A stretch of DNA of 63,251 bases, filler included, from Reclinomonas americana ATCC 50394 (lineage: Eukaryota): the NCBI GenBank assembly GCA_048213135.1. It is 7 parts of 2 records of this genome, joined end to end, with 100 filler letters (N's around TTAATTAATTAA, not from the genome) between each part and the next. Parts side by side here need not be neighbours in the genome. Positions count along the whole stretch, not along the records: positions 1 to 21,615 come from PS015085.1; 6 more parts are not named here. One strand, 5' to 3'. Made by a program: the position numbers and the translations under genes. Position 1 is the stretch's first letter. Every line of letters starts with the position of its first letter. The notes under the pieces were generated by a model that searched no databases, was not told the DNA's origin, and saw only the letters and a program-made list of their open reading frames with translations. Below, in pieces: positions 1 to 61,341 of the stretch.

Positions 1-83
1 CCTCCCTCCCCTTCCCTCCCCCTCCCTCCCTCCCTCTCTCCCTTTCCCTCCCCTCGCCCTTCCCCTCCCTCACCTTTCCCCAC

Positions 84-335
84 CGCCTTCATCTCCGGAT
101 GCACCAAGCGATCCTTCAAGCGATTCCACACATACAACTTGCGCCGGTGATGCTCCTTCAACAAGTGCCGCGACTGCGCCGCCGTCAGCTTGATGCCCGC
201 CGCCGACGACGAACACGCCTCCTTGACACACTCATCCAGTGCCTCCTCTGCTCGATCCAGCCACAACTGAGGAACAACAAGAGCACTACTGCTACTGGTG
301 GTGGTGGTGGTCGAGGTCGAGGTCGATCCGCTCAT
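84..335 (-). CDS. Hypothetical protein, first exon (gene continues off the left edge)
   Basis: ATG at 335 opens MSGSTSTSTTTTTSSSSALVVPQLWLDRAEEALDECVKEA...HPEMKA, ending at a GT donor (83) followed by a purine-rich intron on the minus strand. No family recognised. Confidence 0.55.
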
Positions 336-728
336 CGCTCTGTTGGTGTGTTGTGTGTGAAAAAAAAAGAAGATGATGGGAAATTTTGTAACGGTCAAAT
401 TTCAATATCCAGATGTTGCATTCACCAACCAAACAAGCAACAGCTAAGTCGAACCATATCCAAAACATCGGCACAAACACCATAGTCTTGACGGCAGCAA
501 CAGGTTTTCTAGTGTATGATCGCAGTTCTCGACTTGTTCGGAGCTCCGAATTCGAACGTGGCGATCAACACCAACACCAGGGCCTGCCTCGTGCGAGGTG
601 GCAAGATCTCAGCGTACACAAGTAGAACTGCCATCACTTTCCTCTCTCTCAGTGCCTCGTTTGCCGGGAGACCAGAATGTCACGGTGCCACTCGCAGGCG
701 ATGCTGGCCGTGTAATGTCCTCTGCAAT

Positions 729-1799
729 TCACCAGCGAGAGCCTAGATCAGCAAAGCTTCGATGCAGCACGACCTCGGCTTCCTCGACGATGAAGCACCG
801 CATCACCATCTCCGGCAGACACCGCGAATCGGCATCCTCACTCTGCATCTCCTGCACGACATGCATCGCCAACCTCGCCACATCGAGCTCCCTTCGAGCA
901 AGTCCGCGTGGCGTGGACCACACTCGCACCGTCTCATCGTGACTGCCGCTCACAATATGCTCGCCGTCGGCAGTGATGGCGACGGATGCGACTGCGTCAA
1001 CGTGTCCCTCCAGCCGTCGCACCTCCTTGCCGCTCTCCAGTGACCACACTCGTACATAATTGTCTTCACTTCCGCAAATGACGTGCATTCCGTCGCGGGT
1101 GACAGCGACAGACTGCACAGCGCTAGCGTGGCTGCTGAATTGTCGCACTCGTCTCCCGCTCGCCACAGACCGCACCAACACGGCGTTGCCACTCGCGCTG
1201 ACAATCAGCTCACCATTGGGAGTAAAGGCGATAGACGGCACAGGTGTGTGTCCATGCAACTGTCGCAACTCTTCTCCAGTCGCCAGAGACCACACTCGCA
1301 CGGTCATGTCCCAGCCGCCACTCACAACGTGCTGCCCATCGGGAGCGACGGCAACACACAACACACCATCTGTGTGTCCCTCTAACCGATGCACTTCCTT
1401 TCCGCTCGCCAGTGACCACACTCGCACAGTCTTGTCAGCACTCCCGCTCACCACATGCTGACCGTCGGGTGTGATGGCGACACTCCACACCCAGTAAGTG
1501 TGCCCCTCCAATCGTCTCACCTCCTCTCCCCGCACCAGTGACCACACTCGAACTGTATGGTCAGCACTCCCGCTCACCACGTGCTGACCATCAGGCGTGA
1601 CGGCGACACACCACACCCATCCGGCGTTGGCCCGCAAACATCGCACCTCCACTCCAGTCGCCAACGACCACACGCGGATTGTCTCGTCGTAGGCACCACT
1701 CACTATGAACTGACCATCGGGAGTGACGGCGACGGCCATCACCTGGTTGGTGTGCCCACGCAGACATTTGGAAGGGAGAGTGGCGGTGGGGAGTGACAT
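729..1799 (-). CDS. Intronless WD40-repeat protein (7 repeats) with conserved ~60-aa C-terminal tail, tandem copy 1
   Basis: 356-aa ORF; repeats of GHxxxVxxVAVTPDGQHVVSGSxDxTVRVWSLASGEEVRRLE; tail ...DSRCLPEMVMRCFIVEEAEVVLHRSFADLGSRW. Confidence 0.93.
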   Translation of the reverse strand: MSLPTATLPSKCLRGHTNQVMAVAVTPDGQFIVSGAYDETIRVWSLATGVEVRCLRANAGWVWCVAVTPDGQHVVSGSADHTVRVWSLVRGEEVRRLEGHTYWVWSVAITPDGQHVVSGSADKTVRVWSLASGKEVHRLEGHTDGVLCVAVAPDGQHVVSGGWDMTVRVWSLATGEELRQLHGHTPVPSIAFTPNGELIVSASGNAVLVRSVASGRRVRQFSSHASAVQSVAVTRDGMHVICGSEDNYVRVWSLESGKEVRRLEGHVDAVASVAITADGEHIVSGSHDETVRVWSTPRGLARRELDVARLAMHVVQEMQSEDADSRCLPEMVMRCFIVEEAEVVLHRSFADLGSRW

Positions 1800-1959
1800 G
1801 TGCTTGTGCGTGCAAAGGTGGATGGATAGGAGTCTTCGTCCTAGTCCTTTCGCGGTTCATCGACCTTCGGCAAACTTCTGCGGTGATTTCATTATAGCTT
1901 CATGTACGTCGCACAAGGGAGGAATACCACCACTCACAACAATCATCGGATTTCCAGAG

Positions 1960-3030
1960 TCACCAGCAAGAGCCGGGATCAGCAAAGCACCGACGCATTA
2001 TGACCTCGGCTTCCTCGACGATGAAGCACCGCAGCACCATCTCCGGCAGGCACCGCGAGTCGGCATCCTCATCCTGCATCTCCTGCACGGCATGCATCGC
2101 CAGCCTCGCAAGGTCAACTTCTTGTCGCGCCAGACCACGCGGCGTGGACCACACTCGCACCGTCTTGTCGTGACTGCCGCTGACGATGTGCTCGCCGTCG
2201 GGAGAAACGACGACGGACTTTACCACACTAGTGTGCCCCTCCAACCGTCTCGAATCCTTGTCGCTCGCAAGTGGCCACACTCGCACAGCATTGTCTTCAC
2301 TTCCGCGAATGATGTGCATGCCGTCGCGGGTGAGAGCGACAGACTGCACTAGCGCAGCGTGGCTACTGAATTGTCGCACTCGTCTCCCGCTCGCCACAGT
2401 TCGCACCAGCACAGTTTTGCCACTCGCGATGACAATGTGTTCACCATTGGGAGTAAAGGTGACAGGTGGCACGGGTATGTGTCCATGCAACTGATGCACT
2501 TCTTCTCCAGTCGCCAGCGACCACATGCATATTGCAGTGTCCCAGCTGCCACTCACAACGTGCTGCCCATCGGGTGTGACAACAACAAACACCACACCAT
2601 CTGCGTGTCCCTCCATCCGTCGCACTTCCTCTCCACTCGCCAGTGACCACATGCGCACAGTCTTGTCATAACTCCCACTGACGATGTGTCGGCCATCGGG
2701 AGAGACGGCAACGCATTCCACTCTCCCACCATGCCCCTCCAACCGTCTCACTTCCTCTCCCGTCGCCAGCGACCACACTCGCAGCAACCGATCACTGCCT
2801 CCACTCACCACGTGCTGACCATCGGGCGTCACGGCGACACAATGCACCCAGGGGGAGTTGCCCCGCAAACATCGCACCTCCACTCCAGTCGCCAACGACC
2901 ACACGCGGATTGTCTCGTCGTAGGCCCCACTCACGATGAACTTGCCATCGGGAGTGACGGCGACGGACACCACGTTGTCTGTGTGCCCACGCAGACACTT
3001 GGAAGGGAGGGTGGCGGTGGGGAGTGACAT
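1960..3030 (-). CDS. Intronless WD40-repeat protein with conserved tail, tandem copy 2
   Basis: ATG at 3030 gives MSLPTATLPSKCLRGHT, identical to the copy 1 start; 7 WD repeats; same tail. Confidence 0.93.
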   Translation of the reverse strand: MSLPTATLPSKCLRGHTDNVVSVAVTPDGKFIVSGAYDETIRVWSLATGVEVRCLRGNSPWVHCVAVTPDGQHVVSGGSDRLLRVWSLATGEEVRRLEGHGGRVECVAVSPDGRHIVSGSYDKTVRMWSLASGEEVRRMEGHADGVVFVVVTPDGQHVVSGSWDTAICMWSLATGEEVHQLHGHIPVPPVTFTPNGEHIVIASGKTVLVRTVASGRRVRQFSSHAALVQSVALTRDGMHIIRGSEDNAVRVWPLASDKDSRRLEGHTSVVKSVVVSPDGEHIVSGSHDKTVRVWSTPRGLARQEVDLARLAMHAVQEMQDEDADSRCLPEMVLRCFIVEEAEVIMRRCFADPGSCW

Positions 3031-3178
3031 GTGCGTGTGAGAGAATGACAAGGAATGTGTGATTTGTTGTCCTAGCAAAGTCCTTCGACGCAACAGTGTT
3101 ACTCACGGGGTGAGCCATGCGAGGGATACTTTTCATTAGCTTCATGTACGTCGCACCAACAACAAACAATTTCCATAG

Positions 3179-4261
3179 TCACCAGCGAGAGTCTGGATCG
3201 GCAACGCACCGGTGCAGGACGACTGCAGCCTCCTCGACGATGAAGCAGCGCAGCACCATCTCCGGCAGACACCGCGAATCCGCATCCTCACTCTGCATGT
3301 CTTTAATGGCCCGCATTGCCAGCCTCGCCACATCAAGCTCCCGTCGCGCGCGTCCACGCGGCGTCGTCCACAGCCGAATCGCTGTGTCGTGGCTGCCGCT
3401 CACCATGTGCTCGCCGTACGGACTGACGGCGACGGAAAACACCCAGCCAGTGTGTCCCTCCAGCACTTTCAACTCCTCGCCACTCGCTAGCGACCACACC
3501 CGCACAGCGTCGTCGTACCCGCCACTCACAATGTGTTGGCCGTCGGGCGAGACGGCGACAGACAGCACCCCTTTCTCGTGACCCTCACACCGGTACACCT
3601 CGCCTCCAACTGCCAGAGACCACACTCGCAGCGACCAGTCGTTACTCCCGCTCACCACAAACTGACTGTCGGGAGTGACGGCGACCGATGTTATAACACG
3701 TAAGTGGCCCTTTAGCCTTTGCACCTCCTCGCCACTCGCCAGTGACCACACTCGAAGCGTCTTGTCCAGACTCCCACTCACCGCACGCTGACCGTCGGGC
3801 GTGACGGCGACACAACGCACCGCTTCCGTGTGACCTTGCAACCGCTTCACCTCCTCCCCACTCGCCAACGACCACATGCGCACCGACTTGTCAGCACTCC
3901 CACTCACGACATGCTGCCCGTCGGGGGTAATGGCGACACACCACACCCAGTCGGTGTGCCCCTCCAGTCGGCGCACCTCCTCGCCCGTCGCCAGTGACCA
4001 CACTCGCACAGTCTTGTCATGACTGCCACTCACAACGTGCTGTCCATCGGGAGTGACAGCGACAGAGTACACCCCCCACGTGTGCCCCATCAATCGACGC
4101 ACCTCATGCCCACTGGCCAGCGACCACACTCGCACAGTCATGTCATCCGCACCGCCTCCGCTCACCACGTGCTGGCCATCGGGAGAGATGGCGACGGAGA
4201 GCACAACATCCGTGTGTCCGCGCAGGCACTCAGAGGAGGAAAGAATGGTGGAGAGAGACAT
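3179..4261 (-). CDS. Intronless WD40-repeat protein with conserved tail, tandem copy 3
   Basis: ATG at 4261 (MSLSTILSSSECLRGH) chosen by homology to paralogue starts; 7 WD repeats; tail RCLPEMVLRCFIVEEA. Confidence 0.92.
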   Translation of the reverse strand: MSLSTILSSSECLRGHTDVVLSVAISPDGQHVVSGGGADDMTVRVWSLASGHEVRRLMGHTWGVYSVAVTPDGQHVVSGSHDKTVRVWSLATGEEVRRLEGHTDWVWCVAITPDGQHVVSGSADKSVRMWSLASGEEVKRLQGHTEAVRCVAVTPDGQRAVSGSLDKTLRVWSLASGEEVQRLKGHLRVITSVAVTPDSQFVVSGSNDWSLRVWSLAVGGEVYRCEGHEKGVLSVAVSPDGQHIVSGGYDDAVRVWSLASGEELKVLEGHTGWVFSVAVSPYGEHMVSGSHDTAIRLWTTPRGRARRELDVARLAMRAIKDMQSEDADSRCLPEMVLRCFIVEEAAVVLHRCVADPDSRW

Positions 4262-4460
4262 GAGTGCGTGTGATCGTGGCTCGGTAAGGCAATGCAACGG
4301 GGTATTCGGTGTCCTCGCAATGTCCTTCGAAGCGCGCGACGGCTTTGCAGGCATGTAAGGAGCGAGTCTCGAGCCATATGAAGGATACATTCATTAACTA
4401 CCTACACGTCACCCAAGGGAAGGAGAAAAACACACAACAATAAATGGCGGATTTCCCGAA

Positions 4461-5543
4461 TCACCAGCGAGAGCCAGGATCAACAAAGCAGCTATGCAAC
4501 ACAACCTCGGCCTCCTCGACAATGAAGCAGCGCAGCACCATCTCCGGCAGACATCGTGAATCGGTATCCTCGCTCTGCATCTCCTGCACGGCCTGCATCG
4601 CCAGCCTCGCACAGGCGAGCTCCTGGCGAGCGAAACTACGTGGCGTGGACCACACTCGCACGGTCACGTCGTTGCTCCCGCTCACCACCTCCGAGTCATC
4701 GGGAGTGACAGCGACACACCACACCGGGCCAGTGTGTCCCCTCCACTGTTTCACCTCTTTGCCGCTCTCCAACGACCATACCCGCACAGTCTCGTCCAGA
4801 CTGCCGCTCACGATGTGCAGGCCATCGTGAGTGACAGCGATACACTGCACCACATCAGTGCGTCCCTCCAGTCGTTGCAGTTCCTCCCCGCTCGCCAGCG
4901 ACCACACTCGCACAGTGCTGTCCTCACTCCCACTCACAATACGCTGGTCATCGGGCGTGACCGCGACGCAATTCACCCACCCCACGTGACCGTCCAGCCG
5001 TCGCACTTGCTCCCCACTCGCCAGTGACCACACGCGCACGGTCCAGTCAACGCTGCCACTCACCGCATGCTGACCATCGCCAGTGACAACGACAGATGAC
5101 ACTCTTTTCGTGTGTCCCTCCAACCGTCGCACCTCCTCGCCACTTGCCAGCGACCACACTCGCACGGTCCTGTCTAGATTTCCACTCACCACATGCTGAC
5201 CATCGGGTGTGATGGCAACGCATTCCACCTTGCCAGCGTGTCCCTCCAACCTTCGCATCTCTTCCCCACTCGCCAGTGACCACACGCGCACACTGCTATC
5301 TGCATTCCCGCTCACAATGTACTGACCGTCGGGAGTGATGGCGACAGAGGTCACAAACAGTGCAAGTACCTCCACTCGTCGCACCTCTTCACCACTTGCC
5401 AGTGACCACACGCGCATCGTGTCGTCAAAACTCCCACTCACAATGGAGAGACCGTCTGGAGTGACGGCGACAGCGTACACTGCTCCAATGTGGCCCTGCA
5501 GGCACTTGGAAGACGAGGAATGGACTGCGGCGGAGAGCGACAT
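4461..5543 (-). CDS. Intronless WD40-repeat protein with conserved tail, tandem copy 4
   Basis: ATG at 5543 (MSLSAAVHSSSSKCLQGH); 7 WD repeats; same tail. Confidence 0.92.
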   Translation of the reverse strand: MSLSAAVHSSSSKCLQGHIGAVYAVAVTPDGLSIVSGSFDDTMRVWSLASGEEVRRVEVLALFVTSVAITPDGQYIVSGNADSSVRVWSLASGEEMRRLEGHAGKVECVAITPDGQHVVSGNLDRTVRVWSLASGEEVRRLEGHTKRVSSVVVTGDGQHAVSGSVDWTVRVWSLASGEQVRRLDGHVGWVNCVAVTPDDQRIVSGSEDSTVRVWSLASGEELQRLEGRTDVVQCIAVTHDGLHIVSGSLDETVRVWSLESGKEVKQWRGHTGPVWCVAVTPDDSEVVSGSNDVTVRVWSTPRSFARQELACARLAMQAVQEMQSEDTDSRCLPEMVLRCFIVEEAEVVLHSCFVDPGSRW

Positions 5544-5681
5544 GCGCGCGTGCGAGTGAAAGATACAGTAAGAGAGCGAGAGTGTGTCCCCACGATGTCC
5601 TTCGACGCGAGACCTTGATCTTTCATTAGCTTCGCGTAGGTACAATCGCACAAGGGAGAAAAACAACTCGGCTTTCCCGAA

Positions 5682-6761
5682 TCACCAATGCAAACTTGGA
5701 TCAACAAAGCATCGACGTAGCACGATCTCGGCCTCCTCGACAATGAAGCAGCGCAGCACCATCTCCGGCAGACATCGTGAATCGGCATCCTCACTCTGCA
5801 TCTCCTGTGCGGCCTGCACCGCCAGCCTCGCACACTCAAGCTCCTGGCGAGCAAGGCCGTGCGGCGTGGACCACACGCGCACCGTCATGTCTTCGCAGCC
5901 GCTCACAATGTGCTCGATGTCAGGAGCAATGGCAACAGAGCACACCTTGTCGTCGTGCTCCTCCAGCCGTCGCACCTCCTTGCCTCTCGCCAGTGACCAC
6001 ACGCGCACCGTACCATCATCGCCCCCGCTCACTACGTGCTGCCCGTCGGGAGTGACGGCAACACAACGCACGTCAGCAGTGTGCCCTTCGAATCGACGCA
6101 GCTGCTCGCCACTCGCCAGCGACCACACTCGCACAGTGCAGTCTTCACTTCCGCTCACAATGTGCTGACCACTGGGAGCGATGGCAACACTCCACACCCA
6201 GTAAGCGTGCCCCTCCAGTCGTCGCACTTGCTCGCCACTCGTCAGCGACCACACTCGCACATACTCATCCTCACCTCCACTCACCACATGCCGACCGTCC
6301 GGCGCAACAGCAACACAATACACCCTTCCAGCGTGCCCTTCCAACCGTCGCACCTCCTCCCCACTCGCCAGCGACCACACGCGCACACTCTTGTCATGAC
6401 TGCCACTCACCGCGTGTTGACAATCAGGGGCGACGGCCACGCATTCCACCCACCCCGTGTGCCCATACAACCGCCGCACCTCCTCGCCACTCGCCAGCGA
6501 CCACACTCGCACAGTCTCATCGCGACTGCCACTCACAACGAACTGACCGTCGGGTGTGACGGCCACAGATTGCACCGCGGACGCGTGGCCTTCCAATCGC
6601 CGCATCTCTTCTCCACTTGCCAGCGACCACACGCGCACAGTTTTATCGGAGCTGCCACTCACAATGAAGCGCGCATCGGGAGTGACGGCGACAGACAGCA
6701 CAAAGTGAACGTGACCGGGCAGACAACGGGAAGAGGAAGCAAGAACGCTGGCAATTGACAT
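5682..6761 (-). CDS. Intronless WD40-repeat protein with conserved tail, tandem copy 5
   Basis: ATG at 6761 (MSIASVLASSSRCLPGH); 7 WD repeats; same tail. Confidence 0.92.
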   Translation of the reverse strand: MSIASVLASSSRCLPGHVHFVLSVAVTPDARFIVSGSSDKTVRVWSLASGEEMRRLEGHASAVQSVAVTPDGQFVVSGSRDETVRVWSLASGEEVRRLYGHTGWVECVAVAPDCQHAVSGSHDKSVRVWSLASGEEVRRLEGHAGRVYCVAVAPDGRHVVSGGEDEYVRVWSLTSGEQVRRLEGHAYWVWSVAIAPSGQHIVSGSEDCTVRVWSLASGEQLRRFEGHTADVRCVAVTPDGQHVVSGGDDGTVRVWSLARGKEVRRLEEHDDKVCSVAIAPDIEHIVSGCEDMTVRVWSTPHGLARQELECARLAVQAAQEMQSEDADSRCLPEMVLRCFIVEEAEIVLRRCFVDPSLHW

Positions 6762-6990
6762 AAAATGCAGGTTACCGTGAGGCAATGTGGAATTTCTCCG
6801 AAACCAGTAACCCTTTCCAAAACACGCAGCGCTGTCGATGTATCTGTCGTCTCCATTGCCGTTCTTGCCTGTTTCCACGTCAGTAACCGCACGGCCGCAG
6901 ACAGGCTTCATGCGTTTTTTCGTGTGTGAGAAGTACGTATATGAGTCATCTGTCCCGCTTTGTCCCGAGATTCGCCGATTCTTTCGCGCA

Positions 6991-7575
6991 ATGGTTCTCC
7001 TGCTTCGGTACGCTCTTCCTTCAGCGTTTCATGTTGCACACAAGATCGCAGAGCACAAAAGCACACAGAGCTGTTTTTGCGTTTGTGTGTGTCGGCCATG
7101 ACTGAAAATGTCGCACTCACTCTCTCGCTCACTCACTCTCTCTTCTTTGTTGTTTGTGTTTTGTGTGCATGTGTGTAGAGGAGCGGTGTCGCGTGTGGGT
7201 GGTGCGTTCGCGTCTGTGCGACGAGGCCTTTGTGTGGCGAGTGTGAGTGGGGGTGATCAGACGGTGGTCATGCCGCGTCACAAGGGACTGCAGTTTGATG
7301 AGCCGCTCATCTTTGAGCAAGGTGAGTGTATCAGTGTGTGGAAGAGAGAGAGAGTGAGAGTGTGTGTGAGAGAGAGAGAGAAGGGGGGAGAGTCGGAGAT
7401 TCGGAGCTTGCATGGAGCAGTTGCATGCTTGCTTGTTGTTGTGCGCGCGTCTCTCTTTCGTTGTGTGTGTTTTGTTTGTGTGTATCAGTGCATGTGTGTG
7501 TGTGTGTGCGGTGAGGAGTGTTCTTCCGAGATCTTCTCACGCTTTCGTGTTCGGATTTTTGTGAAGTGTGATTGC

Positions 7576-9155: not shown

Positions 9156-11957
9156 CAAACAGACGGAGATGATAATCATTGTTAGGGAGCGAGAGAACAG
9201 AGAGGGAGAAAGGGTGAGAGAAAGAAAGACAACCTGGCAGACTGACAAACAGAAAGGGAGAGAGAGACCGATGAAAAAGGGAGGGAAAGAAGATAGTGAC
9301 GCTGAGGTGAGACAGTGAGGCTATGATGAACAGAGAGATGTCATTGTGAGGGAGCGAGAAAAATAGAGAGAGAAAGGGAGAGAGAAAGAAAGAGAGCAAA
9401 CAGACAGACTGACAGAAAGGGGGAGAGGGAGAGAGAGAAGAGAATGACAGAGAAAGATATCATTGCGTGAGAGAGGGAGAATGAAAGAGAGACAAACAAG
9501 GAGAGGTGGAGATGAGAGTGACGCTGAGCTACGACTAGCAACGAGATATCACTGTGAGGGAGCGAGACGCTGTTTATTGCTGACGCTGACTGTCATTGTG
9601 CTTTCCCGCAGACACTACGTGCGCCTGTCGCAGAAGAACTTTTCGATCGATTCCGGCTTTTATCCGCTGGGATCGTGCACCATGAAGTACAATCCGCGCC
9701 TGAACGAGTCGGTGGCGCGCTTGCCAGGGTTGAGTGCACTCCTCCACACCTTGAACACAACTTCTTGCCACTCACAATGTTTCCCCGCGCAGTGTCGCCG
9801 ACGTGCATCCACTGCAGCCGGAGAGCACCGTGCAGGGAGCACTGGCACGCTACCATTGTGTCTTCCTCCTCCTCCTCCTCCTCACCCCACTCTGACACTT
9901 TTCTTCTCCTTCTTCATCGTAGGCCGTGATGAGCGAGTTGAGCGAGTGGTTGTTGAAGCTGACGGGCATGCAGACGGTGGCATTGAGCCCGGCTGCTGGC
10001 GCGCACGGTGAGCTGTGCGGCATTATGGCCATTAATCAGGCTCTCCGCGAGACGGGTCAGGTGCATACATGCATGTATCTCTTCTGTGTTGCTCCAAAAA
10101 TGGCTCCGTGTGTCTCACTCCTTTCCATGCAGACCAAGCGCCGTGTGGTGCTGGTCCCCGAGGCCGCGCACGGCACCAACCCGGCCACGGCCGCCGCCTG
10201 TGGCTTCGAGGTGGCCTTTGTGCCGCAGAAGCCGGACGGACGAGTCGACCCGGCTGGACTGAAGGCGATTTTGAAGGAGAAGGGGTGCGTGATGGAGCGA
10301 GGGTGAAGAGCGTGTGACGTGCTCGTCCGCTGACGCGTCGTTGCGCAGAGACATTGTCGCCGCCGCCATGCTCACCAACCCGAACACTCATGGACTGTTT
10401 GAGCGCGACATTATCGAGATTGCCGACGCGTTGCACGCTGCCGGGTTTGTACTATTCCACTCCCGATCCCTCGCCGCTTTTCCCTCGTCGCACTCACACA
10501 CGCACATACCCTCCCCTGCAGTGCCTACTTCTACTGCGACGGTGCAAACTACAACGCCCTGCTCGGACGTGTCAAGGTCGCCGATCTCGGCATTGACTGC
10601 ATGCACATCAATCTGCACAAGACCTTCTCCACACCGCACGGTGGTGGTGGCCCCGGCAGCGGCCCTGTGGTGTTTGCTCCGCGTCTCGCGCCGTACGTCA
10701 CCCTGCCGTATGTGACGCGTGAGGTGGACAAGTCGAAGCCGAATGGCGAGGTGTTCCGACTGGTGGAGTCATACGAGGGCGCACGTGCGCAAGGCAACAA
10801 GCCGCTTGGCCACCTGCGCGCCTACCCCGGCCAGATGGGCATGTGGGTGCGTGCGTTGGCCTACGCCAAGGCGTACGGTGTCGACGGATTGCGCCAGGTC
10901 AGCGGTGACGCTGTGCTGAATGCCAACTACTTGCTGGCCAGGTTTGTGGCAAGGAAGGGCGGAGCAAGAGGAGCAAGAAGAGAATGAGCAGTGTGTGTGT
11001 GTGTGAGAGAGAGATAGAGAGAGACAAGCAAGAGAAGAATAAGAGGAGCGCAAGACGAGCAAGAGGGGAGAGAGAGAGAGAAACGAGCGAGACGCAGAAT
11101 GAGACAAGCAAGAGGAGAGCGAGACTTGCAAGAAGCAGAACTCGGCGTGTGAGACCAGAATGAGATGGAGAAGAGGAGAACGGAACAAGGAAGAGCAGAA
11201 TGAGATGAGGTGGAGCAGAATGAGACAAGCAAGAGGAGAGCGAGACTTGCGAGAAGCAGAACGAGCGAGCGAGACCAGCATGAGAAGAGCAAGAGGAGAG
11301 AGAGAGAGAGAGAGCGAAGAGGAAGAGGGTAGAACGAGACGAGTGAGAAACAGATCAAGACGAGCAAGAGCAACGCACGGACCGCCACAGAGTTGCTGAT
11401 CCATCGTTGTCTTGCGATGTGTGCAGCCTGAAGGACACTCTGTCGGTGCCTTTCGGTATTGAGCGATGCATGCACGAGGCTCTGTTCAACGACAACTTTT
11501 TGGCGGGCACCAAGATCTCGACTCTCGATTTTGCCAAGGCCATGATTGATCGCGGTGCGTATGTACACAGATTCTTGTGTCCCTCTATTTGTCGATCTCC
11601 ACTCACTTCAGTGGCGTGCAGGATTCCACCCGCCAACCATGTACTGGCCGCTGACTGTGCGCGGTGCGCTGCTGATGGAGCCCACCGAGACTGAGAGCAA
11701 GCGCACTCTGGACGGCTACGTGGCAACGTTGAAGGAGCTGGTCGAGCGGGCGCGCAAGGGCGATGTGGAGTACTTTAAGGAGGTGCGTGAAGTGTGTTGT
11801 GAGAACAAAAAGGGCAAGAAAGAGTGCCTTGCAATCTCACTTGTTTCCCTTCTCCACCCACCAGGCCCCTCACGTGGCTCCCATTCGGAGGGCCGACGAA
11901 GTGCTGGCCGCCAAGAAGCCTCGCTTGCGCTGGAACCCGCCGACCGCGTCGGCATAA
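6991..11957 (+). CDS. gcvPB: Glycine dehydrogenase (decarboxylating) subunit 2 (glycine cleavage P protein beta/P2 chain), with mitochondrial-type presequence, 11 exons
   Basis: Phase-consistent exons 6991-7007, 7179-7321, 8896-9028, 9612-9728, 9793-9844, 9923-10060, 10133-10284, 10349-10444, 10522-10941, 11427-11554, then 11622-11782 and 11865-11957 (12 coding segments if the 17-nt first exon is counted). Motifs: [60 protein letters not shown]-lysine [31 protein letters not shown]. Confidence 0.95.
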
Positions 11958-12082
11958 TCTCACCCCCGCTGCATCCCACCCCAACGATGCCTCCGCGTTC
12001 ATCTGCCGCGCCGCATGAATGGCGGGCGTGTGTATGTGTGTGTTTTTTCTTTATAAACCAACCAAAACAAAACAAGCAGCCA

Positions 12083-13169
12083 TTATTCTGCCTCTAGCCG
12101 CGCCAGCACCTCTCGCAGCATGCTGGCCTCCTCCTCGCGATCCGCCAGCGAGCGAACCGGTCGACTGTGCTCCACTTGTTGCTCCTCGCGATTGGCCTTC
12201 CACATTTCCCTCCACCTGCAGAGCATGCATGATGAGCAGCAGCAGAAGGAAAGAGAGTGCAGGAAGAGAGACTCCCACAAACTCTGTGTCACTCTGTGGA
12301 TGGAGAGGAGCGAGAAGGGTGAAGTAATATGTGACTCAAGGGCTGTGGAGGAACAGAGAGCAAAGGGAGACTGCGGAGGACTGGGGAGCTCGAGCAGGGG
12401 TGAGACTACTCTCGGAGACTGGGTATCGAAAGGGCTGTGAGACAACTTCGTGAAATGCACGAAGAGTAGGATTCAAGACTGAGATTCGGAGAGAGGAAAC
12501 AACTGGCAGAGGCTTGAGGAGAAACTCACGAACTTGGGAGGGACACACAAGTTCCCGATTACCTCTGCACCCTCCGAGACTCTCATTCTCGTCTTCACCG
12601 GCGCCCTTCGTTCTCTAATCAATTCTCTGCTGTCCCTGATTCACGAGTTGTCTCATTTCTCTGTCTCTTTCTTTCTTCCCTCCCTCCCTTCTCTCCTCCC
12701 TCCTTTCTCCCTCCCTCCCTCCTTTCCCCTTGCCTCCCTCCCTCTCCCCCCTTCCGCCCTTCACCAACCACTCCGTTCCCTCCAAATCCCCTGGCACCCT
12801 CGGAATAATATGCACATGCAGGTGACGAATGCTCTGCCCACTGGCCTCCCCCTCCTGCAACAGCACATCATGACTGTCACAGTGGAAGGCACTGTGCAGT
12901 GCCGCAGTCACGCGATCAATCAGTGAGAGGAACTCGAGGCGCACAGAGGCATCGCGCAGGTGAGAGATGCGCTCAATGTGGTCCTTGGCGCATACCTGAT
13001 GAGGGGGAGTGAGTGAGTGAGTGAGTGTCTTTGACAGTGTTTTCACTCTCTCACTGACCAAGACGTGACCGGGAAGGATCGGCCGCAGGTTGCACAGAGC
13101 ATAGAAGTGCTCGGTCTCAACAAAGCGCCCCTCAGAGGACTTGCGCTCGTCGCAGAACGGGCATGACAT
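12083..13169 (-). CDS. HIT-family hydrolase (FHIT/Ap3A hydrolase-like), 3 exons
   Basis: CPFC N-terminus, [29 protein letters not shown] (HxHxH triad). Last exon [17 protein letters not shown] resembles the FHIT C-terminus; phase-2 intron at about 12216-12768. Confidence 0.88.
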
Positions 13170-13562
13170 TTGACAAGTATGACAAGGGACAGCTGTCAGT
13201 GTTGCCTGTCGTGAAGTCGTGAGAAGCTGCCTTGCAACAGGGAGTCTTTCGCCATGCGATAGTCAACTGTTGAAGTTTGCAGTCATTTTGTTTGTGTTCT
13301 CCTTCACACACCACCAAACTAGCGACAGCTGCCTTCCAGAACATCAACTCAAACACCAGTCTCAAGGGCAGCAGTACGTTTCTTTGTGTGTTCGTTGCCG
13401 AAGCTTCGAACAACTCAGAACTGCGATCTTCACCACATAAAGGGTGGCTTTCCAACTAATCCACAAGGGTACACTGCACACGTGCGCGACGCATCACCAA
13501 CAACATCGACGCTCTATAAAAAAAACAAAACCTTCTCTCCATCCGCTCGCTACTAAAGTATT

Positions 13563-15928: not shown

Positions 15929-18900
15929 ATGTGAGCGAGCTGCGACATACACACAATCTCTCACTCACTCAGCACACGCACCTCCAGCGGTGGCGATCGC
16001 TGCGCCTTGTACAGGACCAGAGCACGTTCACGGTACTCGGCCGACTTGTGTGGTTGATTGGCCTGCTCGGCAATCTGCGCCAGCTGCAGCAAGCTGTCGA
16101 GCGACGCTTGCTTCCGATTGGCACCCTCGCGAATCGACAGCGCCCGCACCGCATTGGTCTCCGCACGAGCAATGTCGCCCTTCTGTCGCAGCGCTTCGGC
16201 CAACCCAAACAACGTGTCCGACACGCGCAGACGCGACACCGACGCACGCAGGTCGCGCGCGCGCTGACTGTCCCGCGCCGACTTGTCGCCAAACATGACC
16301 AACCACTGCGCAGGCGAGAAGCCAACTGCCGACTGCTCCTCCTGTCCCACTCCCAGTGTGGCATCCAGCGACGACGGACCATGCACCACAATGTCGGAGA
16401 GACGAACAGAGGAGTACTTTTCCGCACCTGTTTCATGACGCAGATCCGTGTGAGAAAGACGCCACACGCAAAAGACAATCAACGCTGTGCTCTTCCGCAA
16501 CGTCGTTCCAAGTCAGCCTCCACCTCCAGATCCTCGCCCGTCTGCTGCACAGCAGTGCGGATCGACAGCGATTTTTCAAAGTGTTCTGCGCCACACGAGA
16601 AGCAAACGGTGAGTCATCCCGGGTAGCATGTACTTCCATTTCCGAGTCACAAACGCACCCTGCGCCGCCTCCGGTTGACGCAGCCGCAGTGCGCACTCGC
16701 CCAGCAAGTCGTACACAGTTGCCGTCACACGGTGGGTGTCACCCAACGCCAGTTTGCACACATGCAGCGCCTTGAGCAGGTATTTTTGCGCCTCGGCGGC
16801 GTTGTCTGCTTGCAAGTATCTGTGTGTGTCGCACCACAACTCAGTGAGTGGCTCAGTTAGCTGGGGCTCTGGCCACCGGCATGGTACACGCAACATTCTT
16901 GCCACCTCCAAGTGCATGTCGGCGAGAAGCGGATGGGAGGGACCAAACACGAATTGAGCAATCTCCTCCGCATGCCCAATGCACTGCGACGCCGGACCCT
17001 GATTGCCGACGGCGCGGTAGCTCCTGAACAGACTGAGATAGACGTCAGCGGCCTCGGAGCTCATTCTACAATCACCAAGCACACAAGTGTCAGCAGTGGC
17101 ATAAGTAAAAGGATGCATAGAGGAGACGCAACGCCAAGTGCCGCCGTTGTGCCACACCCAGTGCCGTAATCGCATACATGTAGCATTGATCCCAGTCGTG
17201 GCGAATGGCGTGAATGCAAGACAGATCTGCATGAACAAGAGCAGGATAAGCACCTTGCATCTCCCTCCATTCCTTTTCTCCTTGTTGCACGATTCATCCG
17301 CAAATCCGCTGAGAAATCACTGCCATGAATCTTTCTTTCTCTGCCTCTCTTTCTCTCTCTCACACACACATGCACACACGTGCACACAGCACACACAATC
17401 TCAGTCCAGCGTCGTAACCTTCTTTCCTGCAATAGTTCTTTTCGATGCCGATTTCTTCTGTCTCCAATCGATTCTCTCCTCCTCGCATCCCTCTCTTTGT
17501 CTTTCTCTCTCTCTCTCTCACACACACACACATACACACACACACACACATGCACACAGCACACACAATCTCAGTCCAGCGTCGTAACCTTCTTTCCTGC
17601 AATAGTTCCTTTCGATGCCCATTTCTTCTGTCTCCAATCGTTTCTCTCCTCCTCGCATCCCTCTCTTTCTCTCTCACACACACGCACATGCATACACAAT
17701 CTCAGTCCAGAGTCGTAACCTTCAACCCTGCAATACTTCCCCGCTTCCCACTTCTTCATATCTCATCTCGACTCCCTCTTCCTCACATCCCTCTCTTTCT
17801 CTCTCTCACACACGCACGCACATGCTGCGTCATTACCTTCTTTCCTGCAATAATTTCCCCGCTTCCCATTTCTTCACAGCTAATCTCGACTTCCTCTCAC
17901 TTACATTCTCCCTCTTTCTCTCTCTCACTGCGTTTTTCTCTCTCCCCGCCTCTCTCTTTGTGCGTGTGAGTGTGTGTCTGTCTGCCTGTCTCTATCCACT
18001 CTCGAATTTCGTATTCCGTGTACCTTTCTCTCTACATTCACCCTTCCCATGCCACCCTTCTCCTCACCACAACACTTCTTCTCTCCCTACGTTCTCCCTT
18101 TTCTTCTCCCCCTTCGTTCTCCCTTTTCTTCTCCCACTCCCTCTCCTTTCAGTCTTCCTCTCCCATATTCCCTTCTCCTTTCACTCTTCTCCTTCTGTCC
18201 CTTCACCTTCACCCCCTTTCCCTTCTCCCCCTTCTCCCCCTTCCCCTTCTCTCCCTTCCCCTTCTCCCCCCTTCCCCTTCACCCCCAAACCATTAAACAT
18301 GTACATGCCAACACGATTGTCGATGCCCTCCAGGAAATTCGTGAGCTGCAAGCGCACGTTCATCACACGCGAGGCGATCTCGTATTCGCCCTTCGCCAAC
18401 ATCTCGTCCAGCTTCTGCTGCAGCTGGCTGACGGCGAGGCCATCGGAAAACGTGTGTCGCGTGCGAGGCACAAAGCGCAAAAAGTCGGTGTTGGCAATCG
18501 GGCGCGCAGTGCCGGAGAAATCGTAGCGCTCTGCCACACGGAACACCACACCGCACTGTGGTCGGCAAAGCAGGGGAGGAGAGTGAGCCGTACGATAAAA
18601 CCAGAGAGAGAGAGAGACAGAGAGCAGCAGCTTGCTTAACGCAACATGTTGCTGCATGCTGACAAAGAGAGCGGCCTTGTGTGCAGGCTGCTCGACGAGT
18701 TCGTGTGCAAAGCGCAGTTGGACCTCTTGCTTGAGCACCGTGTTCCAGAACTGAATGTGCACACATATCGTCAGCGCATCGCAAAACAAGGGCACAATTG
18801 CACACAGCGCAACATTCGTCGACTCGTCACTCTGGCCCAACACCAAATTGAAAAAGTCCACGGCCTGCGACTGGAACTCGTCGCGCTTCTGCTCACTGTC

Positions 18901-30253: not shown

Positions 30254-31745
30254 ATGACTTCGCCTTCCCCTCTCTTCTTCTGCATGCGTATCACGCTGGA
30301 GCGCGTGAATCGACTGCAACTGTCCTTTGACAAGCTGAAGAGCGCCGCTGATGAATGGTGGCGCGCGGTCGATGAATGGTACCGGTGGCGCGCGCTCGAT
30401 CGCGAGAGCCGCGAGCGCATGGAATCCCAACGGCAACAGATCACGCTTAACTGGAGCTTTTTAGAACGCGAATCCCGAGAGCTCTGTGCGCCCTCTGCAG
30501 CGGTGCAAAGTCTTGCAGTCGCCCACGATGATATGGAAGTTGTCAGTGGCAGCTGCACAGACGGAGTAGTACTTCGAGTGTGGTCGCTGGCGAGTGGTGA
30601 AGAGCGAAGCTCCTTCTTCAATGGGCACTGGTCGATGGTGGCCTCTGTCGTCGTCACACGTGACTCTCAGTACGTGGTTAGTGGAAGGTATGACACAACA
30701 GTGCGTGTGCAGTCACTTGCGAGTGGTGCGGAGGTGCGCCGATTGGAGGGTCACACTGGCATGGTGATGTCAGTCGCCGTCACTCCCGATGGTCTGCATG
30801 TCGTGAGCGGGAGTAGTGATAGCACAGTACGTGTGTGGTCGCTGGCGAGTGGAGAACAAGTGCGTCGGCTGGAGGGACACAGCGACACAGTACAGTCTNN
30901 NNNNNNNNNNNNNNNNNNNNNNNNNNNNNNNNNNNNNNNNNNNNNNNNNNNNNNNNNNNNNNNNNNNNNNNNNNNNNNNNNNNNNNNNNNNNNNNNNNNN
31001 NNNNNNNNNNNNNNNNNNNNNNNNNNNNNNNNNNNNNNNNNNNNNNNNNNNNNNNNNNNNNNNNNNNNNNNNNGTCGCCGTCACTCCCGACAGTCAGCAC
31101 ATCGTGAGTGGTGGTTGGGACAGCACCGTGCGGGTGTGGTCGTTGACCAGTGGAGAGGTGGTGCGACAACTGGAGGGACACACTGGCATTGTCGAGTCTG
31201 TGGCTGTCACTCCCGATGGTCGGTTCATAGTGAGTGGCGGCGATGACAGGACAGTGCGAGTGTGGTCGCTGGCGAGAGGAATGCAAGTGCGACAGGTTCA
31301 AGGGGCACAAAGGTTGGGTCTTGTGTGTCGCCATCACCCCTGACGGCCAACACGTCGTGAGNNNNNNNNNNNNNNNNNNNNCGGCGGTGCAGACAAGACG
31401 GTACGAGTGTGGTCACTCGACCGTGGTCACGAAGTGCGACGGCTGGAGGGGCACACGAATTACGTAAGATCTGTGGCCATCACTTCCGACGGTCAGCACA
31501 TCGTGAGCGGTAGTGAGGACGAGACGATTCGAGTGTGGTCGACGTTGTACGGTCTTGCCAGTCGAGAACTGCACCGAGCGCGGAAGGCCTCGATGACGGT
31601 GTGCGAGATGATGCCAGAGGCAGATGTCGATCCACTGGCGGAACCTCCACGCTGCCTGGCAGAGATCGTGCTGCGCTGCTTCATCGTCGAAGAGGCCGAG
31701 GTCTTGTTGCGCCGATACCTCGGTGATCCGACCCTGCGCCTTTAA
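30254..31745 (+). CDS. Dispersed sixth paralogue of the WD40 + conserved-tail family, with N-terminal helical extension; apparent +1 frameshift near 31293 (pseudogene or sequence error)
   Basis: Same repeat consensus and tail RCLAEIVLRCFIVEEAEVLLRRYLGDPTLRL. Reading shifts at CGACAGGTTCAAGGGGCACAAA (FKGHKGWV is in another frame). Two N-gaps inside. Confidence 0.85.
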
Positions 31746-46151: not shown

Positions 46152-46251
46152 NNNNNNNNNNNNNNNNNNNNNNNNNNNNNNNNNNNNNNNNNNNNTTAAT
46201 TAATTAANNNNNNNNNNNNNNNNNNNNNNNNNNNNNNNNNNNNNNNNNNNN

Positions 46252-61241: not shown

Positions 61242-61341
61242 NNNNNNNNNNNNNNNNNNNNNNNNNNNNNNNNNNNNNNNNNNNNTTAATTAATTAANNN
61301 NNNNNNNNNNNNNNNNNNNNNNNNNNNNNNNNNNNNNNNNN

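What the first reader, a model, noticed from the sequence alone, without database searches (positions are those of the whole stretch)
729..6761. Tandem array of intronless WD40 genes with variable blade surfaces and a constant tail: candidate diversifying recognition repertoire
Seen: five head-to-tail ~1.2-kb units, each a single-exon 356-360 aa ORF, in a region where the other genes are spliced. Each has exactly 7 highly self-similar WD repeats. The scaffold (VAVTPDGQHVVSG, DxTVRVWSLASGEEVRRLEGH) is conserved, while the residues after GH and before D vary strongly (TNQVM, TYWVW, TDGVL, GGRVE, TWGVY, TEAVR, TKRVS, EKGVL; SGAYD, SGSAD, SGGWD, SGSHD, SGSLD, SGGED). Established: these loop positions form the top ligand-binding face of WD40 propellers, and equivalent positions are hypervariable in Podospora HET-D/HET-E (HNWD) non-self receptors. 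Inference: an expanding family of variable binders on a fixed effector or adaptor tail, without any NACHT domain; possibly an undescribed innate-immune or ubiquitin-targeting system in a protist.
Basis: partly seen in the sequence, partly recalled or inferred. Interest (0 to 1): 0.82.

Follow-up and report, generated by a model that had tools for sequence, protein, structure and literature searches.

The report
Tandem WD40 propeller genes, orphan tail
Five neighbouring intron-free genes of a protist (probably a jakobid flagellate) encode near-identical seven-bladed propeller proteins that differ mainly on their ligand-binding face and share a short tail seen almost nowhere else, which suggests a small family of adaptors with different targets and one common docking end.

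Summary
Window 729-6761 carries five head-to-tail, single-exon minus-strand genes (356-360 aa). Each is a seven-bladed WD40 propeller built from 42-residue repeats, followed by a conserved ~62-residue tail.

- **Variable face.** Variation is concentrated at repeat positions 16, 17, 19, 35 and 37, which include the published top-face hot spots R1-2, R1 and D-1.
- **Selection.** My own codon-model fits give omega of about 2.8 at the hot spots (p about 3e-8), against 0.05-0.35 elsewhere and 0.15 in the tail. The result survives blade-specific trees and a simulation control.
- **The tail.** It matches no Pfam or PDB entry. It recurs in only 2 of 1.84 billion representative proteins, one being a Reclinomonas americana EST product. 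A sixth, diverged copy lies at 30254-31745.
- **What does not fit.** The Podospora HET-E analogy holds only for the selected face. There is no NACHT domain, blades are only about 62% identical in DNA with no homogenisation, every copy has seven blades, and the paralogs are old (dS 0.4-1.1).
- **Untested.** Immune or ubiquitin roles were not tested.

Best reading: a lineage-restricted family of adaptors with diversified top faces and a common tail. This is a new variant of the known repetitive-WD40 kind, and its function is unknown.

The parts
729..1799 (-). g1: 356-aa single-exon gene, 7-blade WD40 propeller plus tail. Blade 5 is degenerate.
1960..3030 (-). g2: 356-aa paralog, 76% identical to g1. 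Blade 5 is degenerate.
3179..4261 (-). g3: 360-aa paralog with a 2-aa insertion in blade 1.
4461..5543 (-). g4: 360-aa paralog, the one modelled. AF2 mean pLDDT is 87.3. The model shows 7 blades and two tail helices at residues 301-324 and 332-353.
5682..6761 (-). g5: 359-aa paralog.
729..917 (-). Tail of g1 (last 62 codons plus stop). The equivalent tails are at 1960-2148, 3179-3367, 4461-4649 and 5682-5870. Its core is the invariant block S-R-C-L-P-E-M-V followed by R-C-F-I-V-E-E-A, and it ends in W.
   Evidence: no Pfam/PDB/Atlas match; omega 0.15
1800..1959 (-). Intergenic spacer g2>g1. The other spacers are 3031-3178, 4262-4460 and 5544-5681. They are partly conserved, so whole units including spacers were duplicated. 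A 21-nt motif occurs at 3131-3151 and 5621-5641.
30254..31745 (+). g6: a sixth, diverged family member. It has a ~95-aa N-terminal extension, WD blades, and a tail 50-58% identical to the array tails with an insertion. It is interrupted by N gaps at 30899-31073 and 31362-31381 and by a frame break next to the second gap, so I cannot tell whether it is intact.

Best explanation
This is a lineage-restricted multigene family, probably jakobid. It has six members in this window and at least two relatives elsewhere.

Each member is a stand-alone seven-bladed WD40 propeller built on an unusually uniform, consensus-like scaffold. Each is followed by a conserved two-helix C-terminal tail that has no known relatives.

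The family evolved by birth-and-death duplication of whole ~1.2-kb units, with occasional exchange of single blades between copies. Purifying selection acted on the scaffold, the bottom face, the rim and the tail. Positive selection acted on the top-face contact residues.

Inferred mechanism: each paralog binds a different ligand (a protein or peptide) on its top face. All paralogs hand that ligand to, or are anchored at, one common partner through the shared tail. They would then be a set of interchangeable adaptors or substrate receptors.

Shown here: the gene structure, the fold, where the variation lies, the selection pattern and the rarity of the tail. Inferred: ligand binding, the role of the tail and the cellular process.
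For: Anatomy.

Fold: AF2 mean pLDDT 87.3 with 7 blades. The best Foldseek matches are repetitive or designed propellers: 5yzv at E 2.6e-34 and 39% identity, 7big and 2ymu.

Variable positions: 16, 17, 19, 35 and 37. They lie in the d-a loop, at the start of strand a and in the b-c turn of the model (DSSP). Positions 17, 19 and 35 are the R1-2, R1 and D-1 hot spots of Wu et al. 2012 (passages read).

Selection, all from my own codon-model fits:
- M1a vs M2a gives 2dlnL 35.1; M7 vs M8 gives 46.0; M8a vs M8 gives 37.5.
- All 9 (M2a) or 9 (M8) sites with posterior >0.9 sit at repeat positions 16, 17, 19 or 35.
- The fixed-site model gives omega 2.82 at R1-2/R1/D-1 (LRT against 1: 30.5, p 3e-8). 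It gives 1.5 at positions 16/37 (p 0.055), 0.05-0.35 in eight other classes and 0.15 in the tail.
- With blade-specific topologies and branch lengths, omega is about 3 and 2dlnL is 29.3.
- In simulation under omega=1, 0 of 400 replicates reach the observed conditional LRT of 23.1.
- Tree-free pairwise fits give omega_top >=0.99 in 10 of 10 pairs, with p<0.05 in 6 of 10 (five-position set) or 7 of 10 (three-position set).

Tail rarity: 2 hits among 1,835,955,588 representatives. Both hits have the tail directly after a WD blade. One is an EST-derived Reclinomonas americana protein.

Native composition: GC3 is 0.65-0.71 in the array against 0.60-0.69 in neighbouring ORFs.
Against: - No ligand, partner, localisation or phenotype is known.
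- The tail is predicted with low confidence (pLDDT 45-72). I could not see the model coordinates, so whether the tail docks on the propeller is unknown.
- The omega estimates of 63-72 from M2a/M8 are not credible in size, because those sites are saturated.
- Three pairs (g1-g3, g2-g3, g3-g5) are not significant with the five-position set.
- Blades 3 and 5 contribute negatively to the blade-wise test.
- There are only five sequences, dS is 0.8-1.1 for most pairs and positional orthology of the middle blades of g3-g5 is weak. Only 22 of 35 blades have a same-index blade as nearest neighbour.
- Codon bias could depress dS.
- The five-position set was chosen from these same data. Only the three-position set is a priori.
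Confidence: 0.55

Rival explanations
1. An innate-immune or non-self recognition repertoire that works like the Podospora HET-D/HET-E (HNWD) receptors. The variable propeller faces would recognise foreign or altered-self molecules and be kept diverse by an arms race.
For: Omega exceeds 1 at the same kind of top-face positions that are selected in HNWD (Paoletti 2007, passages read). The genes form a tandem family and are lineage-restricted.
Against: - There is no NACHT, NB-ARC or death/effector domain. The protein is only the propeller, about 10 N-terminal residues and the tail.
- There is no concerted evolution. DNA identity between blades is 0.624 within genes and 0.621 between genes, whereas HNWD repeats reach 100%.
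- There is no repeat-number variation among the 5 array copies.
- The paralogs are old (dS 0.4-1.1) and few are known.
- There are no population or challenge data.
Confidence: 0.1
2. Substrate receptors of a cullin-type ubiquitin ligase. The tail would be a divergent docking helix, comparable in role to an F-box, SOCS box or H-box. This is a special case of the best explanation.
For: The architecture, a variable WD40 face plus a short conserved helical module, is that of WSB and FBXW-type receptors (my own knowledge, not from a call). The invariant L-P-E-M-V-L-R-C-F stretch recalls the start of an F-box (recalled resemblance only; searches give the sequence).
Against: Pfam finds no F-box, SOCS-box or any other family in the 5 of 5 tails, even at E<=10. 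The PDB profile search has no hit better than E=1. An F-box normally lies N-terminal to the propeller (own knowledge). No Skp1, Elongin or DDB1 of this organism was available to test.
Confidence: 0.15
3. Ordinary, largely redundant tandem duplicates. Their top-face positions would simply be unconstrained, and the omega>1 signal would be an artefact of saturation, blade exchange between copies or depressed dS.
For: - Gene-wide omega is 0.25-0.37.
- Blades 3, 4 and 7 have deviating best trees, which shows exchange between copies.
- The M2a/M8 omega values are unrealistic.
- For the least saturated pair, g1-g2, omega_top is only 1.9-2.0 (p 0.014 and 0.052).
- Variable hot spots on a conserved scaffold are a general trait of repetitive WD40s (Hu 2017, passages read).
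Against: The excess over neutrality persists with blade-specific trees, in tree-free pairwise fits including both independent cherries g1-g2 and g4-g5, and against simulation (0 of 400). All five ORFs are intact. Exposed rim and bottom positions are constrained (omega 0.21-0.35), so the proteins are not drifting.
Confidence: 0.2

Closest known systems
Highly or moderately repetitive WD40 proteins of prokaryotes, fungi and protists (Hu et al. 2017, PMC5587647; structures 2ymu and 5yzv)
   Same: The blades are consensus-like, with a conserved scaffold and diverse hot-spot positions (passages read). These are the closest structural matches. The best sequence matches are 33-59% identical over the propeller only.
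   Different: Mean identity between blades is 0.46-0.61, which falls in the 'moderately repetitive' band rather than the >=0.7 band. The blades are old at the DNA level. The protein is a single stand-alone propeller with an orphan C-terminal tail, and it forms a tandem gene family in a spliced eukaryotic genome.
Podospora anserina HNWD / HET-D / HET-E NACHT-WD40 allorecognition genes (Paoletti et al. 2007, PMC1805685)
   Same: Both have 42-residue WD repeats with positive selection on a few codons that form the interaction surface, and both are multigene families.
   Different: This family has no NACHT or HET domain. Its repeats are not near-identical, there is no concerted evolution and no repeat-number variation among copies (paper passages).
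WD40 substrate receptors with a short docking module (WSB SOCS-box proteins, FBXW F-box proteins, DCAFs); from my own knowledge
   Same: A propeller whose top face selects the ligand, joined to a small conserved helical element that plugs into a common machine.
   Different: No sequence match of the tail to any such module was found, and no partner was tested.
Gcp1-Gcp3, the Pex7-like WD40 proteins co-occurring with the mitochondrial T2SS in jakobids and heteroloboseans (Horvathova et al. 2021, PMC8134430)
   Same: They are lineage-restricted WD40 proteins reported from jakobids (passages read).
   Different: Those are described as Pex7 relatives, some with a PTS1 signal. The proteins here are consensus-type repeats ending in W with an orphan tail. 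No direct sequence comparison was possible, because I had no Gcp sequences.

Membership tests
WD40 repeat beta-propeller (Pfam PF00400) | Multiple WD40 repeat matches above the gathering score | tested here: met
   Scores are 204.6-274.7 bits against a cutoff of 27, with 6-7 stretches per protein, in 5 of 5 proteins.
WD40 repeat beta-propeller (Pfam PF00400) | Closed seven-bladed propeller fold | tested here: met
   The AF2 model of g4 has pLDDT above 90 over 265 residues and 28 strands. Foldseek matches solved WD40 propellers at E down to 2.6e-34 and TM up to 0.97 on the target.
Repetitive WD40 (Hu et al. 2017): HR >=0.7, MR 0.4-0.7 internal identity | High identity between the repeats of one protein | tested here: inconclusive
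   Mean pairwise identity between blades is 0.46-0.61, which fits the MR band and not HR. My measure is a simple mean, not the paper's exact procedure.
Repetitive WD40 (Hu et al. 2017) | Diversity concentrated at predicted top-face hot spots | tested here: met
   Entropy is 3.2-3.8 bits at positions 16, 17, 19, 35 and 37 against at most 2.4 bits elsewhere. Positions 17, 19 and 35 are R1-2, R1 and D-1.
HNWD / HET-E type fungal NLR | N-terminal effector (HET) and NACHT NTPase domains | tested here: not met
   The ORFs begin about 10 residues before the first strand. The 25 best Pfam families listed per protein are all propeller families. The upstream in-frame extensions are not conserved.
HNWD / HET-E type fungal NLR | Near-identical repeats homogenised by concerted evolution within and between genes | tested here: not met
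   DNA identity between blades is 0.624 (same gene), 0.621 (different gene, different blade) and 0.692 (same blade, different gene). The nearest blade lies in the same gene for 1 of 35 blades.
HNWD / HET-E type fungal NLR | Repeat-number polymorphism | not testable with these tools
   All 5 array copies have 7 blades. No strain data exist: no sequencing run was listed.
HNWD / HET-E type fungal NLR | Positive selection on a few interaction-surface codons per repeat | tested here: met
F-box / SOCS-box WD40 substrate receptors | A recognisable F-box or SOCS-box domain | tested here: not met
   0 of 5 tails match any Pfam family at E<=10. The best PDB profile hit has E=1 and is an unrelated ribosomal protein.
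F-box / SOCS-box WD40 substrate receptors | Binding to Skp1 or Elongin B/C | not testable with these tools
   No genome is held for this window, so the organism's adaptor proteins were not available.

The most novel reading that the evidence does not exclude
Jakobid flagellates carry a previously undescribed family of germline-encoded 'variable-face' propeller receptors. These are stand-alone WD40 binders whose ligand face is driven apart by positive selection. All of them plug, through an orphan two-helix tail, into one still unknown effector machine. This would be a recognition or targeting system built without any NTPase domain. It would also be independent of fungal, plant and animal NLRs, in one of the deepest-branching eukaryotic lineages.
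Probability: 0.15. Interest if true: 0.8.

Novelty: new variant of a known kind. Interest (0 to 1): 0.5.

Why it matters
Repetitive WD40 propellers with variable contact residues are known as sensor ends of large bacterial and fungal signalling or immune proteins. Here the same design appears stripped down: a bare propeller plus a 62-residue orphan tail. It is multiplied in tandem in a free-living protist, and there is a measurable excess of amino-acid change exactly at the contact residues.

If the tail proves to be a docking module, it would define a new adaptor system. It would also offer a clean natural series (same scaffold, different faces) for studying how propeller specificity evolves. 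If it does not, this remains a tidy example of birth-and-death evolution with positive selection in a little-studied eukaryotic lineage.

Tried and rejected
- **Whole genome.** None is held, so no family census was possible.
- **Sequencing runs.** None was listed for 500-7000. No RNA holder was listed, and read laying was therefore not used.
- **Tail searches that found nothing.**
  - Word-indexed search of residues 296-360 among proteins of 198-630 aa: 53 candidates, none at E<=1.
  - Pfam at E<=10.
  - NCBIfam and PADLOC.
  - PDB sequence profile: best E=1.
  - ESM Atlas features: no usable hit.
- **Metagenome scan with the tail profile.** One locus, L001. It is spurious: the 26-codon match lies out of frame inside a bacterial metal-transporting ATPase gene.
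- **Tail self-association.** Two copies of residues 296-360 of g4 were submitted. The verdict was 'no answer', which is evidence neither way.
- **Organism identification through the CLU exon.** Only one hit, at 28% identity, which is not informative.
- **Failed or weak computations.**
  - The first fixed-site script returned NaN and was fixed by clipping.
  - NG86 dS computed on the hypervariable codons alone is unusable, because it rests on only 16-21 synonymous sites.
- **Considered and set aside.**
  - Gcp1-3/Pex7-like identity: only passages were read and no sequences were available.
  - PTS1 or CIA-targeting C-terminal tripeptides. Both motifs are recalled, not taken from a call. The ends SRW, SCW and LHW do not fit them.
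  - Bacterial origin of the propeller by transfer. The best structural matches are prokaryotic and the genes lack introns. However, composition matches the neighbours, and consensus-like repeats make such trees meaningless, so the question is left open.
- **Not attempted.**
  - A tail-only structure model and fold search, because tail confidence was already low.
  - Inspection of model coordinates, which the tools do not return. The face assignment therefore rests on the DSSP string and the published topology.
Full report
**1. What is there**

The minus strand of window 729-6761 holds five uninterrupted ORFs. They run from a conserved MSL/MSI start to a conserved W-stop.

| Gene | Coordinates | Length (aa) |
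|---|---|---|
| g1 | 729-1799 | 356 |
| g2 | 1960-3030 | 356 |
| g3 | 3179-4261 | 360 |
| g4 | 4461-5543 | 360 |
| g5 | 5682-6761 | 359 |

- The in-frame extensions upstream of these starts are not conserved.
- The spacers are only 160, 148, 199 and 138 bp. They are partly alignable, so whole ~1.2-kb units were duplicated.
- A 21-nt spacer motif recurs at 3131-3151 and 5621-5641, where none is expected by chance.
- Downstream of g1 lies an unrelated gene. Upstream of g5 there is no further copy before a 902-N gap.

**2. The neighbours are spliced**

Pfam matches to a single CLU/eIF3-p135/TPR protein are scattered over several frames at 16579-20075 on the minus strand. A 59-nt GTGAGT...TTGCAG stretch at about 19608-19666 joins two of these frames. 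The intron itself is an inference. The array genes have the same GC3 (0.65-0.71) as neighbouring ORFs (0.60-0.69), so they look native.

**3. The protein**

- **Pfam.** All five are WD40 proteins, at E 1.6e-75 to 2.3e-84, with 7 repeat stretches in four genes and 6 in g2.
- **Repeat structure.** The period is exactly 42 residues. Blade 5 of g1 and g2 is degenerate.
- **Model.** AlphaFold2 on g4, with a five-sequence alignment, gives mean pLDDT 87.3 and pTM 0.85. It shows seven four-stranded blades and then two helices at 301-324 and 332-353. These helices have pLDDT of only 45-72.
- **Fold search.** Foldseek puts the model closest to the Thermomonospora PkwA propeller (5yzv, 39-40% identity), designed symmetric propellers (7big, 7bie) and a 'highly repetitive propeller' (2ymu).
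- **Internal identity.** Mean identity between blades of one protein is 0.46-0.61. That is the 'moderately repetitive' band of Hu et al. 2017 (passages read).

**4. Where the variation lies**

- Over the 35 repeat units, entropy is 3.19, 3.22, 3.84, 3.48 and 3.44 bits at positions 16, 17, 19, 35 and 37. It is at most 2.37 bits everywhere else.
- Mean identity at these five columns is 0.09, against 0.61 for the rest.
- In the model's DSSP string, strand d covers positions 7-12, strand a 18-23, strand b 29-34 and strand c 38-43.
- The variable positions therefore sit in the d-a loop, at the start of strand a and in the b-c turn, which together form the top face.
- Positions 17, 19 and 35 are exactly R1-2, R1 and D-1. 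These are defined by the V-R1-R2-V fingerprint and the residue before the tetrad Asp, and Wu et al. 2012 found them generally required for top-face binding (passages read).
- I could not inspect the model coordinates. The face assignment rests on this mapping.

**5. How the family evolved**

- The tree is ((g1,g2),g3,(g4,g5)), with 89-100% ultrafast bootstrap support.
- Nei-Gojobori dS is 0.41 for g1-g2 and 0.82-1.11 for the other pairs. Gene-wide dN/dS is 0.25-0.37, and 0.16-0.31 in the tail.
- DNA identity between blades is 0.624 within a gene and 0.621 between genes for different blade indices. It is 0.692 for the same index in different genes.
- The nearest blade has the same index in 22 of 35 cases and lies in the same gene in 1 of 35.
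- There is therefore no homogenisation of repeats. The uniform scaffold is kept by purifying selection on old sequences.
- Blades 3, 4 and 7 prefer other topologies than the gene tree. For example, blade 3 groups g1 with g3 at 85% DNA identity. This indicates occasional exchange of single blades between copies.

**6.

I wrote a Goldman-Yang codon likelihood (F3x4, five taxa). Its M0 omega of 0.29 agrees with the counting method.

| Test | Result |
|---|---|
| M1a vs M2a | 2dlnL 35.1 |
| M7 vs M8 | 2dlnL 46.0 |
| M8a vs M8 | 2dlnL 37.5 |
| Fixed-site, R1-2/R1/D-1 (21 codons, a priori) | omega 2.82; LRT against 1 = 30.5, p 3e-8 |
| Fixed-site, positions 16/37 | omega 1.50, p 0.055 |
| Fixed-site, eight scaffold classes | omega 0.05-0.35 (exposed rim strand d 0.35; bottom loops 0.21-0.27) |
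| Fixed-site, tail | omega 0.15 |
| Blade-specific topology and branch lengths | optimum omega about 3, 2dlnL 29.3 |
| Tree-free pairwise fits | omega_top 0.99 or more in 10 of 10 pairs |
| Simulation under omega=1, 400 data sets | largest conditional LRT 12.95 against 23.1 observed |

- **Site models.** All sites with posterior above 0.9 lie at repeat positions 16, 17, 19 or 35 (9 sites under M2a, 9 under M8). The fitted omega of 63-72 is not credible in size, because those sites are saturated.
- **Blade-specific fit.** Blades 1, 2, 4 and 7 carry the signal, blade 6 adds little, and blades 3 and 5 count against it.
- **Pairwise fits.**
  - They are significant in 6 of 10 pairs with five positions and 7 of 10 with three positions.
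  - For the least saturated pair, g1-g2, omega is 1.9-2.0 (p 0.014 and 0.052).
  - g1-g3, g2-g3 and g3-g5 are not significant with five positions.

Remaining caveats:
- only five sequences were available;
- dS is near 1 for most pairs;
- codon bias is possible;
- exchange may occur within blades;
- the five-position set was chosen from the same data.

I read the result as real excess change at the contact residues among old paralogs. It is not evidence for a current arms race.

**7. The tail**

- The last ~62 residues are 87% identical on average. They contain an invariant block, S-R-C-L-P-E-M-V then R-C-F-I-V-E-E-A, and end in W.
- The tail matches no family in any library searched:
  - no Pfam family at E<=10 in 5 of 5 tails;
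  - no NCBIfam or PADLOC model;
  - no PDB chain better than E=1;
  - no Atlas cluster.
- A profile search of 1,835,955,588 representative proteins gives two hits.
  - P0122 is 116 aa (E 2.7e-25). The collection names it as a product of a Reclinomonas americana EST.
  - P0123 is 147 aa (E 1.7e-5) and comes from an unnamed assembly.
- In both hits the tail follows a WD blade directly.
- P0122 is at most 67% identical to any array gene. It is therefore another member or an ortholog, and it shows that the family is transcribed in a jakobid.
- The window's own proteins are not in these collections. Among the 120 best whole-protein hits listed, none covers more than 87% of the query, which corresponds to the propeller only.
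- tblastn of the tails against the window finds a sixth copy on the plus strand at 30254-31745.
  - Its tail is 50-58% identical.
  - It has a ~95-residue N-terminal extension.
  - It is broken by two N gaps and a frame break beside the second.

**8. Interpretation**

Shown: a small, old, lineage-restricted family. Its scaffold, rim, bottom face and tail are held constant. Its top-face contact residues have been driven apart.

Inferred: each paralog binds its own ligand on the top face, and the common tail, perhaps with the conserved bottom and rim, connects all of them to one partner.

The mechanism of diversification is birth-and-death with positive selection. It is not the repeat shuffling with concerted evolution that defines the Podospora HNWD genes. 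Nothing here speaks for or against an immune or a ubiquitin role.

**9. Novelty**

The design principle is in print for repetitive WD40s and for HNWD. My searches for the jakobid context found no description of this family:
- 'Reclinomonas americana' / 'nuclear genome' / 'WD40';
- 'Andalucia godoyi' / 'WD40'.

The only jakobid WD40 proteins discussed there are the Pex7-like Gcp1-3 (passages read). Supplementary files of these papers were not consulted and might list further WD40 genes.

Earlier notes of this scan describe similar variable-face WD40 arrays in bacteria. They did not change my reading.

I rate this a new variant of a known kind, of moderate interest.

Noticed in passing
window 40426-42675 (+): A second kind of intron-free WD40 gene: a 749-codon ORF with pentapeptide repeats (PF00805, E 8e-19) followed by about 12 less regular WD blades. 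It has no tail of the array type. Pentapeptide plus WD40 is an architecture I know mainly from cyanobacteria (own knowledge).
   Followed up: partly
window 16579-20075 (-): A spliced CLU (clustered mitochondria / eIF3 p135 / TPR) gene. A candidate 59-nt GTGAGT...TTGCAG intron lies at about 19608-19666. The best database relative of its largest exon is only 28% identical.
   Followed up: partly
window blades 3, 4 and 7 of the array (e.g. g1 blade 3 vs g3 blade 3): Single blades have gene trees that differ from the whole-gene tree. Blade 3 groups g1 with g3 (85% DNA identity) and g2 with g5; blade 7 groups g1 with g5. This suggests patchy gene conversion between paralogs.
   Followed up: partly
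window 3131-3151 and 5621-5641 (-), and just after each stop codon: There are conserved spacer elements: a 21-nt motif upstream of g2 and g4, and a short TGA-TCGGGAAATCCG-like block with a 4-bp inverted repeat immediately after the stop codons. They could be promoter or 3'-end signals in spacers of only 138-199 bp.
   Followed up: no
window 21616-21715, 26797-26896, 32904-33003, 46152-46251, 56642-56741, 61242-61341: Paired 44-N blocks separated by 12 bases recur six times. This is probably a scaffolding or masking artefact of the assembly.
   Followed up: no
window 3-350 (-): There is a short serine/threonine-rich ORF downstream of g1. It ends at a GTGAGG donor-like site followed by a GA-rich stretch, and it has no Pfam match.
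   Followed up: no
window 11546-12094 (+), 12618-13262 (-), 57595-58521 (+): Fragments of glycine dehydrogenase (GcvP C-terminal domain), a HIT-family protein and a pfkB-type sugar kinase. These are ordinary housekeeping neighbours.
   Followed up: no
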